From the IMG/VR virus record IMGVR_UViG_2537561979_000002, positions 1-4,283 of that record: a stretch of 4,283 nucleotides of DNA. One strand, written 5' to 3'. Under the pieces are notes generated by a model. It was not told the origin of the DNA and searched no databases. It saw only the letters and a list, made by a program, of their open reading frames with translations. This document shows positions 1 to 4,283 of this stretch, in pieces; position 1 is the first letter of the stretch; every line of letters starts with the position of its first letter. A program made the position numbers and the translations under genes. The stretch is from a virus (taxonomy: Duplodnaviria; Heunggongvirae; Uroviricota; Caudoviricetes).

Positions 1-47
1 AGGATGTGACGTGGAACATTGTCACCGGATAACACGCGGAGAATGTT

Positions 48-704
48 ATGGGGAAACTGAGATACCGTAACCTCGTTCCCGCTGAAGGAATGAGTAACAT
101 GTTTGTCAATATCCGGCTGGCAACCAGCCCGCAGGCAGTGAAGCGCATTGCCGCGCATGTGGGTAAGGAGCTGCGGCGCGTGAACCAGAGCCGGATGCGC
201 GCCCAGAAAGCGCCGGACGGTTCGGTGTGGACACGCCGTAAACGCCGTATATCACGCCTTCAGGAGCGCATCAGCTTTATCTGGCAAAACCAGAACCGCA
301 CCCTGAAAAACTGGCATCACGGTTCAGGAAAATACGGCCAGACCATCACCGGCTGGGATGAAGACCGGAGCGGCATACGTACCTTTTACCGGAGTGATAT
401 CCTCCGTTTCCTTGAAATCAGGACACGCCGCATCAACCGTGACACCACAAAAACGGTGCCGATGTTTGCGAAGCTGCGCACGGCCCGTTATCTGAAAGTG
501 AAGGCGGACGCATCAGGTGTGACGGTGGGCTACAGCGGCGTGGCGGCACGCATTGCCCGCGTTCACCAGTTCGGGGAGCGCGACCGGGTGGCCGCAGGGA
601 TGTATACGGATTATCCGGCCCGTGAACTTCTTGGAATAACACCGGCAGATGAACGACTTATTCAGCGTATCATTATGGACAATATCGCGAGGGCTGTGGC
701 ATGA
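48..704 (+). CDS. S: Phage virion morphogenesis / tail completion protein (P2 gpS-like)
   Basis: ORF of 218 aa in frame 3. The C-terminal part (ARIARVHQFGERDRV...YPARELLGITPADERLIQRIIMDNI) resembles the conserved C-terminus of the phage virion morphogenesis family (P2 S / Mu G type) as I recall it. GGAG at 38-41 lies 6 nt upstream of ATG 48. Its stop overlaps the V start (ATGA at 701-704). The position immediately upstream of V matches P2 synteny. The start is uncertain: in-frame ATGs also occur at 90 and 99, and the product is longer than the roughly 150 aa I remember for this family. Confidence 0.7.
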   Translation: MGKLRYRNLVPAEGMSNMFVNIRLATSPQAVKRIAAHVGKELRRVNQSRMRAQKAPDGSVWTRRKRRISRLQERISFIWQNQNRTLKNWHHGSGKYGQTITGWDEDRSGIRTFYRSDILRFLEIRTRRINRDTTKTVPMFAKLRTARYLKVKADASGVTVGYSGVAARIARVHQFGERDRVAAGMYTDYPARELLGITPADERLIQRIIMDNIARAVA

Positions 705-1632: not shown

Positions 1633-2529
1633 ATGCCTTCCGTTGACCTGTCACAGTTACCGGAACCGGCCATCATCGCGCAGCCGGATTTTGAGTCCAT
1701 CCTGGCAGACATTAAAACCATGATGGTGAGCTCCTTCCCGGAAGAATACCGCGCCGCCGTCACCCGTGCCCTTACTCTGGAATCCGAGCCATTGAACATC
1801 ATTTCCCAGGCCATGGCCTTTCGTGAAATGCTGCTTCGCCAGCGCATCAATGAAGCCGCCCGCGCCTGCATGCTCAGCCACAGCCGGGGCAGTGACCTGG
1901 ACAATCTGGCCGCCAACAACAACACCCACCGCCTGGTCATTCATCCGGCCACTGATACCACGGAAGCAGTGATGGAAAGCGACACATCGCTGCGTCTGCG
2001 TGCCCAGTCAGCCTGGGACGGCCTGAGTGTGGCCGGACCGTCCGGCGCGTATGAGTATTTTGCCCGGAGCGCAAGCGGTCTTGTCCGTGATGCGCGCGCC
2101 ATCAGCCCGTCACCGGCCACAGTCACCGTCTCCATCCTGTCAGCAGACGGTGACGGCACCGCCGGTGAGGCGTTACTGAACACGGTGCGCACCGCCCTGA
2201 ATGCCGAGAACGTGCGCCCGGTTGCCGACCGCCTGACTGTGCAGAGTGCTACCATCGTGAACTGGGTAATGGAAGCGAAGCTGTATTTTTATCCAGGGCC
2301 GGAGTCTGAACCCATGCTTGCGGCCGCTGACGCCGCTTTCCGTGCATGGCTGGCAGACCAGGGCCGTATCGGTCAGGACGTGGCCCTGTCAGCCATCACT
2401 GCAGCGCTGCATGTTCACGGTGTCCAGCGCGTTGAGGTCATAAAACCCACGCAGAACATCACCATCAGTGACACTCAGGCAGCCAGATGTACCACATTCA
2501 GCATCAGCGAAGGAGGACGCAATGAGTGA
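1633..2529 (+). CDS. J: Baseplate assembly protein J (P2 gpJ-like)
   Basis: ORF of 298 aa, starting 3 nt after the W stop. AGGGAG at 1621-1626 precedes ATG 1633. Size and position are as in P2 gpJ. The stop TGA at 2527-2529 overlaps the I start (ATGAGTGA). Confidence 0.88.
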   Translation: MPSVDLSQLPEPAIIAQPDFESILADIKTMMVSSFPEEYRAAVTRALTLESEPLNIISQAMAFREMLLRQRINEAARACMLSHSRGSDLDNLAANNNTHRLVIHPATDTTEAVMESDTSLRLRAQSAWDGLSVAGPSGAYEYFARSASGLVRDARAISPSPATVTVSILSADGDGTAGEALLNTVRTALNAENVRPVADRLTVQSATIVNWVMEAKLYFYPGPESEPMLAAADAAFRAWLADQGRIGQDVALSAITAALHVHGVQRVEVIKPTQNITISDTQAARCTTFSISEGGRNE

Positions 2530-3084
2530 CAGGAAAAAACAGACAGCGCACAGCACAGTACATCACTGCTTCCACCGTCCGCAGGGCCATTCATGCGCGC
2601 CACAGAGGCGACAGGAGTACGCATCAGTACCATACCGGTGGACGCCGACACCCTGTGGTCGCCGGACCGCTGCCCTGCTCACCTCCTGCCCTACCTTGCA
2701 TGGGCATGTTCCGTTGACAGCTGGGACCGCAACTGGCCGGAAGAGACCAGGCGACAGGTGATTCGGGACGCATGGATGATACATCGCCACAAAGGGACCA
2801 TCAGTGCACTCCGCCGCATCGTTGAACCACTGGGCTACCTCATCCGTGTATCAGAATGGTGGGAGTTTGACGGCTCGCCCGGGACCTTCACCATTGAGAT
2901 TGGCACACTTGAAACCGGAGTAAGTGAAGAGCTGCATGAAGAAATGGAGCGTCTGATTGCCGATGCGCGCCCCGTCAGCCGCCACCTCGTGGGGCTTAGT
3001 ATCATCCAGGAAATACACGGTGCCATTTACGCCGCTGCCGCAGGTTACGACGGCGACATCATCACCATTTACCCGGAAGACTGA
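2522..3084 (+). CDS. I: Phage tail protein I (P2 gpI-like), reading frame interrupted near the N-terminus (frameshift; possible pseudogene or sequencing error)
   Basis: AGGAGG at 2511-2516 lies 5 nt upstream of ATG 2522 (frame 2), which overlaps the J stop. The gpI-like body, including the conserved N-proximal SLLPP motif at about 2563-2577 and the later LWSPDRCPAHLLPYLAWACSVD region, is in frame 1 and runs to the stop at 3082-3084. Frame 1 has no start codon between the J stop and ATG 2593. The frame-2 continuation from 2522 to 2761 is R/P/H-rich and not protein-like. Adding one A to the A6 run at 2534-2539 would give a continuous protein of about 187 aa (MSDRKKTDSAQHSTSLLPPSAGPF...). Confidence 0.8.
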
Positions 3085-3087
3085 ACC

Positions 3088-4283
3088 ATGAGCACGAGAA
3101 AATTCAGAACCCTTATCACCGACATCGGGCTGGCAAAGCTGGCCGCAACAACGGCGCCTGGCGGTAGACCTGTACGCCTTACGCACATGGCTGTAGGGGA
3201 CGGCAATGGAGAGCTTCGTCAGCCGCAGAAAAACCAGACATCGCTTTACAATGAGGTTTGGCGCCAGTCTGTCAACCGCGTCTTCACCGACCCGGAGAAC
3301 CCGAACCGCCTCATCGCCGAACTGGTCATTCCTCCTGAAACCGGCGGATTCTGGGTGCGTGAAATTGGTGTGTTTGATGATACAGGTACAATGATTGCAG
3401 TAGGAAATACCGCTGAAAGTTACAAGCCCACCAGAGAGGAAGGTTCAGGGCGGGCGCAGATATTCCGTGCAGTAATCACCGTCACCTCCGACGCCGTGGT
3501 GGAACTGGTCATGGACACAACAACAATTCTGCCGACCACGGACTACATTGATGAGAAAATAGCGGAACACGCACGTTCCCGTAACCACCCTGACGCGACA
3601 CTGACAGAAAAAGGATTCACCCAACTGAGCAGCGCCACAAACAGCACCTCTGAAACACTGGCCGCCACACCGAAGGCCGTCAAGGCTGCATATGACCTTG
3701 CAGCCGGTAAAGCACCCGCCAGCCACACCCACCCGTGGAATCAGATAACAGGTGTGCCATCAGCCTCGCTGACGGCAAAAGGCACCGTACAGCTGAGCAG
3801 TGCCACAAACAGTGAGTCAGAGACTGAGGCCGCCACCCCCAAAGCGGTTAAAGCCTTACACGATATGGCTGACGAGCAAGTATACAGGACAGGATGCAAC
3901 CACCGGACGCAAAGGCATCGTACAGCTAAGCAGCGCCACAAACAGCAATTCCGAAACGCTGGCGGCCACACCAAAAGCTGTTAAAGCTGCGTATGACCTT
4001 GCCAACAGCAAAGCCTCGGCAGCCCACACTCATCGCTGGGCTCAGATCACAGACGCCCCTGTTTTTTCGTCTGTTGCCCGCGTCATCATGGGTAAACAAA
4101 GCATAAAAGATATTCTTGATTACTTTGGTTTAGGAGAAGGCTCGACGCTGCCAGTTGGCGTACCCGTTCCGTGGCCTTCGTCAAGACCACCTGAGGGGTG
4201 GTTACAGTGCAACGGTGCCGCATTCACGCGTACAAAATACCCAAAACTGGCGGTGGCCTACCCTGACCTCAGGCTACCAGATT
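3088..4283 (+). CDS. H: Tail fibre protein (P2 gpH-like N-terminus), partial at the 3' end of the window and frame-interrupted near 3871-3877
   Basis: Starts at ATG 3088, 3 nt after the I stop, with GGAAG at 3075-3079. The N-terminal roughly 170 aa (FRTLITDIGLAKLAATTAPGG...ELVIPPETGGFWVREIGVFDDTGTMIAVGNTAESYKP...) closely resemble the P2 H baseplate-attachment domain as I recall it. This is followed by repeats of the motif KGxVQLSSATNSxSETxAATPKAVKA. The frame-1 ORF ends at 3984 after a non-protein-like tail, while frame 2 is open from 3797 to the window end and encodes the third repeat plus a collar-like region (EGWLQCNGAAFTRTKYPKLAVAYPDLRLPD). The gene therefore continues past 4283 in frame 2. 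Confidence 0.85.
3604..4050 (+). repeat. Three imperfect direct repeats within the tail fibre gene (cores about 3611-3702, 3778-3870, 3911-4003)
   Basis: Each core encodes KG(F/T/I)(T/V)QLSSATNSxSETxAATPKAVKAxxDxA. Copies 1 and 3 share a 19-nt identical run (agcagcgccacaaacagca) and are each followed by an HTHxWxQIT motif. Copy 2 is more diverged and lacks that extension. Confidence 0.8.

What the first reader, a model, noticed from the sequence alone, without database searches (positions are those of the whole stretch)
2522..2600. Tail protein I start and body are in different frames, split at an A6 homopolymer
The only ribosome-binding site and start codon (AGGAGG 2511-2516, ATG 2522) are in frame 2, overlapping the J stop in the usual coupled arrangement. 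The conserved gpI sequence, beginning with the N-proximal SLLPP motif, is in frame 1, which has no start codon between the J stop and ATG 2593. The frame-2 product after codon 6 is arginine/proline/histidine-rich junk ending at 2761. One extra A in the run at 2534-2539 restores a full-length gpI. The options are an inactivating frameshift in a decaying prophage, a homopolymer-length sequencing error, or low-level -1 slippage on G AAA AAA C. The last is the least likely: I know of no programmed frameshift in gpI, and I see no obvious stimulatory hairpin or correctly spaced internal Shine-Dalgarno element.
Basis: partly seen in the sequence, partly recalled or inferred. Interest (0 to 1): 0.6.

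Follow-up and report, generated by a model that had tools for sequence, protein, structure and literature searches.

The report
One-base gap in phage gene I
A P2-like prophage baseplate gene (tail protein I) looks broken because a run of seven A's reads as six, and the error-riddled draft assembly it comes from makes a sequencing miscall the likeliest cause, with a real inactivating mutation second.

Summary
AGGAGG (2511-2516) and ATG 2522 are in frame 2 and overlap the J stop (TGA 2527-2529). The conserved gpI body is in frame 1. The two frames meet at A6 (2534-2539).

Adding one A gives a 187-aa protein 100% identical to an E. coli "phage tail protein I" seen on at least 1000 contigs. All 28 complete E. 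coli genomes carrying this prophage, and 10 other fetched loci, have A7 and a single ORF. So there is no conserved two-frame design, and there is no downstream RNA structure. Programmed frameshifting is effectively excluded.

The window is one contig between N gaps in draft scaffold GL872128.1 (GCA_000190975.1). That scaffold has 8 private single-base indels in about 18 kb. They include a second A7->A6 that splits the major capsid gene and an extra C at 3869 that breaks gene H inside this window. Only homopolymer shortenings occur, and they rise with run length. Other assemblies show none.

One other assembly, a Logan assembly of SRR024333, also has A6. It is probably the same or a sister strain, so a real deletion cannot be excluded.

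My estimate: sequencing artefact about 0.6, genuine pseudogene about 0.35, functional slippage at most 0.03. Interest is low.

The parts
1633..2529 (+). Gene J (baseplate wedge protein, 298 aa), frame 1, stop TGA 2527-2529
   Evidence: ORF list. Pfam Baseplate_J E=2.2e-20. Annotated 'baseplate assembly protein' in complete genomes.
2511..2516 (+). Shine-Dalgarno AGGAGG of gene I, 5 nt before the ATG
   Evidence: Read directly from the sequence.
2522..2524 (+). True start codon of gene I (frame 2 in this window). Overlaps the J stop as ATGAGTGA.
   Evidence: The same ATG is the annotated start of the 187-aa 'phage tail protein I' in NZ_CP033635.1, NZ_CP182371.1 and NZ_CP100500.1.
2534..2539 (+). 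A6 homopolymer. It is A7 in every other genome examined except one Logan contig. This is the site of the frame break.
   Evidence: Pairwise alignments place the only gap in J-I here. A-run lengths in all fetched loci are given. All 28 complete-genome matches span 902 nt against a 901-nt query.
2522..2761 (+). Frame-2 reading from the true start: 6 genuine codons, then 73 out-of-frame codons, stop at 2759-2761
   Evidence: Translation. No Pfam family.
2530..3084 (+). Frame-1 body of gpI. The conserved LLPPSA motif is at 2566-2583. The internal Met at 2593 begins the 163-aa ORF that gene callers report.
   Evidence: Translation. Pfam Tail_P2_I E=1.5e-47, with model positions 1-138 on residues 17-152 of the repaired protein. 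Family alignment A1. PDB 6u5b Tri2 PA0619 E=1.3e-37.
3088..3984 (+). Tail-fibre gene H, N-terminal fragment ended prematurely by a second one-base indel (extra C at 3869). The real frame continues to the window end.
   Evidence: 25-mer unique to this assembly. (the 298-aa product is found only in GCA_000190975.1). (removing C3869 gives 397/398 identity to the 514-aa H of L010).

Best explanation
Gene I here is an ordinary P2-type baseplate wedge ('triplex') protein gene. Its real sequence most likely carries A7. The A6 in this record is most likely a homopolymer undercall in a low-quality draft assembly. With A7, ribosomes load at AGGAGG/ATG 2522, coupled to termination of J, and make the 187-aa gpI in a single frame. 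No recoding is involved.

Shown here: the break sits exactly at the A run; A7 restores a protein identical to a very common E. coli protein; all independent relatives have A7; and the source scaffold is full of private one-base indels of the homopolymer-shortening kind.

Inferred: that the A6 is a read or consensus error rather than a mutation, and that the platform was pyrosequencing. The platform claim rests on my recollection of assemblies of that period and was not verified here.
For: 1. The window is 100% identical to L004 7409-11691, which is GCA_000190975.1 scaffold GL872128.1. It is a contig bounded by N runs, and both of its ends are duplicated in the neighbouring contigs.
2. Against the complete genome NZ_CP100500.1, this scaffold shows 8 distinct one-base indels in about 18 kb that no other fetched locus shares. 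The window contig itself has 3 SNPs and 2 indels in 3972 nt.
3. Homopolymer changes are all -1 and depend on run length: 2 of 5 7-mers, 1 of 13 6-mers, 1 of 48 5-mers. Four other assemblies show 0 changes in 137 runs. One of the two shortened 7-mers is a second A7->A6 that splits the major capsid gene into 166 and 191 aa.
4. Where the Logan contig L007 overlaps, it is identical in the flanks but lacks 3 of the 5 L004 indels: the extra C in H and two extra Gs. So this assembly demonstrably carries consensus indel errors.
5. The H product with the extra C exists in no other public assembly.
6. A7 is present in 28 of 28 complete E. coli genomes, 2 IMG/VR contigs, 4 metagenome contigs and draft L003.
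7. The repaired protein equals P0001 at 100% identity and 100% coverage, on at least 1000 contigs.
Against: A second assembly made by a different assembler also reads A6: Logan contig L007 from run SRR024333. It also shares a G4->G3 intergenic deletion with the window's scaffold that 14 other loci lack. A 4-mer is rarely miscalled at consensus level. So this strain or lineage probably has at least one real private indel, and the A6 k-mers were at least the dominant path in that read set.

The platform of either data set could not be checked. Spontaneous -1 deletions at A7 tracts are also the commonest real frameshift mutation, and a prophage gene is under weak selection.
Confidence: 0.6

Rival explanations
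1. The A6 is a real one-base deletion at the A7 tract, caused by replication slippage in this strain's prophage. Translation from ATG 2522 then ends at 2761 after 73 out-of-frame codons. At most a little N-terminally truncated gpI (163 aa, lacking LLPPSA) could be made from ATG 2593, which has only a weak AGGG 6 nt upstream. The wedge needs two gpJ and one gpI, and gpI holds the fibre. So the prophage could not build tails and would be decaying.
For: A6 and a G4->G3 deletion are shared by two assemblies made with different software, L004 and L007. L007 carries no other indel in 4.5 kb. Real decay variants of this gene family exist, for example the V-I fusion proteins P0131 and P0007. The roles of gpI (a heterotrimer of 2 gpJ + 1 gpI, with the gpI C-terminus holding gpH) come from bioRxiv 10.64898/2026.09.14.750843.
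Against: L007 is probably not independent. It is identical to L004 outside H, its tail-fibre-assembly protein has the exact sequence filed under EGB64267.1, an accession 7 numbers from the window's 163-aa gpI (EGB64274.1), though that sequence occurs on 65 contigs and is not strain-specific, and its H haplotype is seen nowhere else, which suggests a graph mosaic from the same or a sister read set. No complete or Illumina-type assembly has A6 (0 of 38). The same scaffold has many other indels, several of them shown not to be reproducible.
Confidence: 0.35
2. A6 is real, and gpI is still made by -1 ribosomal slippage (tRNA-Lys re-pairing on G AAA AAA C) or by transcriptional slippage on the A run. 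This would be a recoding site or a phase-variable switch on tail production.
For: Six A's do allow a single tRNA-Lys to re-pair in the -1 frame, and the shifted product would be identical to the A7-encoded protein (sequence). The A-run length differs between assemblies.
Against: The two-frame layout is not conserved: 38 relatives have A7 and one ORF. More distant homologues lack the tract altogether and start MSNSLLPP. The P-site codon would re-pair with GAA, so this is not a canonical X XXY YYZ heptamer. The 101 nt downstream fold no better than shuffled sequence (z = +0.24). The only SD-like element is the initiation SD, 17 nt upstream. A6 is short for RNA polymerase slippage (general knowledge).
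Confidence: 0.02
3. The 163-aa ORF from ATG 2593 is the real, functional gene I product, and the upstream part is dispensable.
For: Public databases hold many 163-aa 'phage tail protein I' entries. Met25 lies in a conserved FMR motif.
Against: Those 163-aa entries come from contigs that begin 1 nt before the ATG, or from A7 loci where the gene caller chose the internal start: L003, and P0128 encoded in L016 and L018. Homologues from Escherichia to Dickeya, and Pseudomonas pyocin Tri2, all start upstream with LLPP. The Pfam model starts 8 residues before Met25. The strong SD and the coupled ATG are at 2522.
Confidence: 0.03

Closest known systems
Bacteriophage P2 gpI (Pfam PF09684 Tail_P2_I), the baseplate wedge 'triplex' component
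   Same: There is a strong Pfam match (161 bits). The gene order is S-V-W-J-I-H with coupled starts. Homologues share the N-terminal LLPPSA motif and the C-terminal part that holds the fibre.
   Different: This lineage has an 11-residue N-terminal extension (DRKKTDSAQHST) that contains the A tract. In this record the tract is one base short, so the ORF is split.
R-type pyocin Tri2, PA0619 (PDB 6u5b, 6u5k)
   Same: E = 1.3e-37, aligned over residues 13-185 of the repaired protein and 2-174 of the chain, including LLPP at the very N-terminus.
   Different: It is a tailocin component from Pseudomonas and has no N-terminal extension or A tract.
Programmed -1 frameshift sites: dnaX A AAA AAG, and phage tail chaperones G/GT or P2 E/E+E'
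   Same: Both involve an A-rich run where tRNA-Lys could slip by -1.
   Different: Here there is no conservation of the two-frame layout, no canonical heptamer in frame and no stimulatory structure or properly spaced SD. The known P2-type frameshift is in E/E', which lies outside this window (the GpE gene in L004 and L013).
Homopolymer-length errors in draft assemblies
   Same: There are only -1 changes, they rise steeply with run length, there are many private indels relative to SNPs, and the contig sits between N gaps with duplicated ends.
   Different: The platform was not verified. One other assembly reproduces the A6.

Membership tests
P2 gpI / Tail_P2_I (PF09684) | Sequence match to the family profile above the curated threshold | tested here: met
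   The repaired 187-aa protein scores 161.4 bits against a cut-off of 20.6, E = 1.5e-47. The 163-aa ORF scores 154 bits.
P2 gpI / Tail_P2_I (PF09684) | Position between baseplate J and tail-fibre H in a V-W-J-I-H module | tested here: met
   Pfam assignments of the neighbouring ORFs. RefSeq annotation of the same locus.
P2 gpI / Tail_P2_I (PF09684) | Conserved N-terminal LLPPSA motif joined to the start codon in one ORF | tested here: not met
   The motif is encoded at 2566-2583 in frame 1, but the start ATG 2522 is in frame 2. The feature is met once the run is A7.
P2 gpI / Tail_P2_I (PF09684) | Homology to a structurally solved wedge/triplex protein | tested here: met
   PDB 6u5b/6u5k Tri2 PA0619, E = 1.3e-37, near full length.
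Programmed -1 ribosomal frameshift site | The two-frame architecture is conserved in relatives | tested here: not met
   A7 and a single ORF are found in 28 of 28 complete genomes and 10 other loci. Distant homologues lack the tract.
Programmed -1 ribosomal frameshift site | Canonical slippery heptamer X XXY YYZ in the zero frame | tested here: not met
   The zero-frame codons are AGG AAA AAA CAG. The heptamer is G AAA AAA, so the P-site tRNA would re-pair with GAA (sequence).
Programmed -1 ribosomal frameshift site | Stimulatory downstream structure or upstream SD at about 10-14 nt | tested here: not met
   Region 2540-2640 folds at -22.5 kcal/mol against a shuffle mean of -23.2, z = +0.24. 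The only SD is the initiation SD, whose last base (2516) is 17 nt before the first A of the run (2534).
Programmed -1 ribosomal frameshift site | The frameshifted product is detected | not testable with these tools
   This needs a reporter assay or mass spectrometry.
Phase-variable homopolymer (contingency) locus | Tract length varies among independent isolates | tested here: inconclusive
   A6 occurs only in L004 and L007, which are probably the same or a sister data set. All others have A7, and no A5 or A8 was found by the pattern scans.
Sequencing/assembly homopolymer artefact | An excess of private one-base indels, biased to shortening and to long runs, in the same assembly | tested here: met
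Sequencing/assembly homopolymer artefact | Raw reads or an independent platform show the longer tract | not testable with these tools
   There is no access to reads or run metadata. A text search for the accessions found nothing.

The most novel reading that the evidence does not exclude
The A6 allele is genuine, and the prophage still makes a small amount of full-length gpI by -1 slippage of tRNA-Lys, or by polymerase slippage, on G AAA AAA C. The A tract in the lineage-specific N-terminal extension would then act as a mutable or leaky switch on tail and baseplate production.
Probability: 0.03. Interest if true: 0.4.

Novelty: not a real feature. Interest (0 to 1): 0.07.

Why it matters
It matters little biologically. 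At best this is one more frameshifted prophage gene. More likely it is a homopolymer miscall in an old draft assembly.

The practical value is as a caution. In this scaffold the apparent pseudogenes (capsid, I, H, tape measure) should not be read as prophage decay or recoding. Likewise, the 163-aa 'tail protein I' entries in public databases are truncations or start-site miscalls of a 187-aa protein.

Tried and rejected
- Megablast of 2300-3200 against the phage collection found no match.
- The pattern scan of species-representative genomes found nothing.
- A text search for SRR024333, GCA_000190975, GL872128 and GCA_002109875 found no paper, so neither strain name nor platform could be established.
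- The Logan paper gives the assembly rules (k-mers seen at least twice, Minia3 contigs, Prodigal in meta mode), and no statement about platform filtering was found.
I resolved this instead by finding P0128 encoded in the A7 loci L016 and L018.
- I considered that the many 163-aa database entries might mark widespread A6 alleles. I rejected this: they are contig-end truncations or internal-start calls on A7 DNA.
- I considered a collapsed 690-nt H repeat as the reason for the short H. This is not needed, because natural 514-aa H alleles exist in L010. The extra C at 3869 still looks like a merged consensus of two repeat variants.
- I considered a downstream frameshift-stimulating hairpin. None was found.

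Full report
**What is in the window.** The 4283-base window carries the baseplate and tail-fibre block of a P2-like prophage. The ORFs are a gpS-like morphogenesis protein (48-704), V (701-1282), W (1279-1629), J (1633-2529), I, and the start of H (from 3088). Each has the expected Pfam family. The same block is annotated this way in complete E. coli genomes.

**Check of the observation.** All stated elements are present.
- AGGAGG is at 2511-2516 and ATG at 2522, in frame 2.
- The J stop TGA is at 2527-2529, giving the overlap ATGAGTGA.
- The A6 run is at 2534-2539.
- The frame-2 reading turns into Arg/Pro/His-rich sequence with no family match and stops at 2761.
- Frame 1 after the J stop reads ...TDSAQHSTSLLPPSAGPFMRATEA... 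Its first possible start is ATG 2593, which gives the 163-aa ORF 2593-3084.
- Adding one A yields MSDRKKTDSAQHSTSLLPPSAGPFMRATEA..., 187 aa.

**Is the upstream part really gene I?** Yes.
- The repaired protein is 100% identical over its full length to P0001, 'phage tail protein I [Escherichia coli]', recorded on at least 1000 contigs.
- Pfam Tail_P2_I model positions 1-138 align to residues 17-152 of the repaired protein. The 163-aa ORF only starts at model position 10.
- In an alignment of 17 homologues from Escherichia, Salmonella, Enterobacter, Serratia, Dickeya, Pectobacterium and Sodalis, LLPPSA is at least 90% conserved. It lies before the Met that corresponds to 2593.
- The solved pyocin baseplate protein Tri2 PA0619 (6u5b, 6u5k) aligns from its residue 2 and starts MSSRLLPP.
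- The A tract lies in an 11-residue N-terminal extension specific to this lineage. Other homologues start MSNSLLPP.

**Relatives.** Megablast of 2300-3200 found 28 complete E. coli genomes at 99.6-99.9% identity. Every match spans 902 nt against the 901-nt query. The alignment puts the single gap of the J-I region in the A run. A pattern scan allowing A5 to A8 found 2 IMG/VR contigs and 4 metagenome contigs, all with A7. Draft L003 also has A7.

The two-frame layout is therefore not conserved, which removes the main requirement for a programmed frameshift. In addition:
- The heptamer is G AAA AAA, not a canonical slippery site.
- The 101 nt downstream fold no better than shuffled sequence (z = +0.24).
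- The only SD-like element is the initiation SD, 17 nt upstream.

**Where the window comes from.** The 163-aa ORF lookup returned L004, which is GCA_000190975.1 scaffold GL872128.1. The window is 100% identical to L004 7409-11691. It is a contig bounded by N runs at 7329-7408 and 11692-12373. Its first 496 and last 399 bases are duplicated in the adjacent contigs. This is a rough draft.

**Quality of that scaffold.**
- Against the complete genome NZ_CP100500.1 (L013), the scaffold has 11 one-base indels in about 18 kb.
- Of the distinct indels among them, eight occur in no other fetched locus, one is shared with L003 and is probably natural, and two are shared only with L007.
- The window contig has 3 SNPs and 2 indels in 3972 nt.
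- Homopolymer changes are all shortenings and scale with run length: 2 of 5 7-mers, 1 of 13 6-mers, 1 of 48 5-mers. Four other assemblies show 0 changes in 137 runs.
- One shortened 7-mer is a second A7->A6 that splits the major capsid gene into 166 and 191 aa.
- Inside the window, an extra C at 3869 truncates gene H at 3984. That product exists in no other public assembly. Removing the C restores an open frame that is 397/398 identical to the 514-aa H of L010.
- Illumina-type drafts L005 and L010 have no indels outside repeat misalignments.

**The complication.** Logan contig L007, from run SRR024333, also has A6. It also shares a G4->G3 intergenic deletion with L004 that 14 other loci lack.
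- L007 is identical to L004 in J-I and downstream of H.
- It differs at 20 distinct sites within H. Most of the alleles on both sides also occur in other strains.
- It lacks three of the five L004 indels in the overlap.
- Its H protein is a singleton seen nowhere else. Its tail-fibre-assembly protein has the exact sequence filed under EGB64267.1, an accession 7 numbers from the window's 163-aa gpI (EGB64274.1), though that sequence is carried by 65 contigs.

The simplest reading is that SRR024333 is the same or a sister strain, with H threaded as a graph mosaic. If so, the unshared L004 indels are plain consensus errors. A6 and G3 were the dominant k-mer path in the reads. That is compatible with a systematic 7-mer undercall, but equally with a real deletion. 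Platform metadata could not be obtained.

**Database 163-aa entries are not evidence for A6.** Most come from contigs that start 1 nt before ATG 2593. Others come from A7 loci where the caller chose the internal ATG: L003, and P0128 encoded in L016 and L018.

**Function and consequence.** In P2 each wedge is a heterotrimer of two gpJ and one gpI, and the gpI C-terminus holds the fibre gpH (bioRxiv 10.64898/2026.09.14.750843).

With A7 the gene is ordinary and coupled to J. If A6 were real, the coupled start would give a 79-aa nonsense product. Only a weakly initiated 163-aa fragment lacking LLPPSA could arise (AGGG lies 6 nt before ATG 2593). The prophage would then be tail-defective.

**Verdict.**
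- The best explanation is a homopolymer miscall in a poor draft assembly (about 0.6).
- A genuine inactivating deletion comes second (about 0.35).
- Functional slippage or a functional short isoform together are at most about 0.05.
- Either way nothing new is revealed, and interest is low.

Noticed in passing
window 3862-3876 (extra C at 3869); H fragment 3088-3984: There is a second one-base indel in the window. An extra C in tail-fibre gene H (GATATGG[C]TGACG) truncates it at 3984. The change is unique to this assembly. Removing it restores an open frame 397/398 identical to a 514-aa H allele. In 744-aa alleles the two internal repeat units read GGTGA and GCTGA, so GGC looks like a merged consensus of the two.
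   Followed up: yes
window 1-496 and 3885-4283; L004 6833-7328, 7329-7408 (N), 11692-12373 (N), 12374-12772: The window is a single contig between N gaps of scaffold GL872128.1. Both of its ends are repeated verbatim in the neighbouring contigs, so gpS-like and H fragments are each called twice in the scaffold.
   Followed up: yes
L004 2388, 2815, 15065, 15350, 15360: The same scaffold has a second A7->A6 and an extra A in the major capsid gene (split into 166 and 191 aa). It also has T6->T5, T5->T4 and an extra G in the tape-measure region. All of these are private to this assembly.
   Followed up: yes
L007 3318 / L004 13736 (intergenic, just after the tail-fibre-assembly gene): A G4->G3 deletion is shared only by the window's scaffold and Logan contig L007. 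It points to a common origin of the two data sets, or to a real private indel of that lineage.
   Followed up: partly
window 3565-4052; L001 5323-6364: Gene H carries repeated 'QLSSATNS.SET.AATPKAVKA' units (Pfam Phage_fiber_2). It varies between strains by a block of about 690 nt, giving alleles of 514, 744 and 756 aa. The H region is also where L004 and L007 differ, which fits recombination in the fibre gene.
   Followed up: partly
window 1-128: Similarity to several relatives (L002, L003) stops upstream of about position 128 in the gpS-like gene. This is a mosaic boundary close to the contig end. The gene is annotated with different starts (204, 213 and 218 aa) in different genomes.
   Followed up: no
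proteins P0131 (271 aa) and P0007 (223 aa), from other E. coli assemblies: These are in-frame V-I fusion proteins in which W, J and the start of I are deleted. They are genuine decay variants of this baseplate module in other prophages.
   Followed up: no
window 2528-2562 (codons 3-13 of the repaired gene I): The A tract sits in an 11-residue N-terminal extension (DRKKTDSAQHST) found only in this E. coli lineage. Other gpI homologues go straight from MSNS to LLPP.
   Followed up: partly
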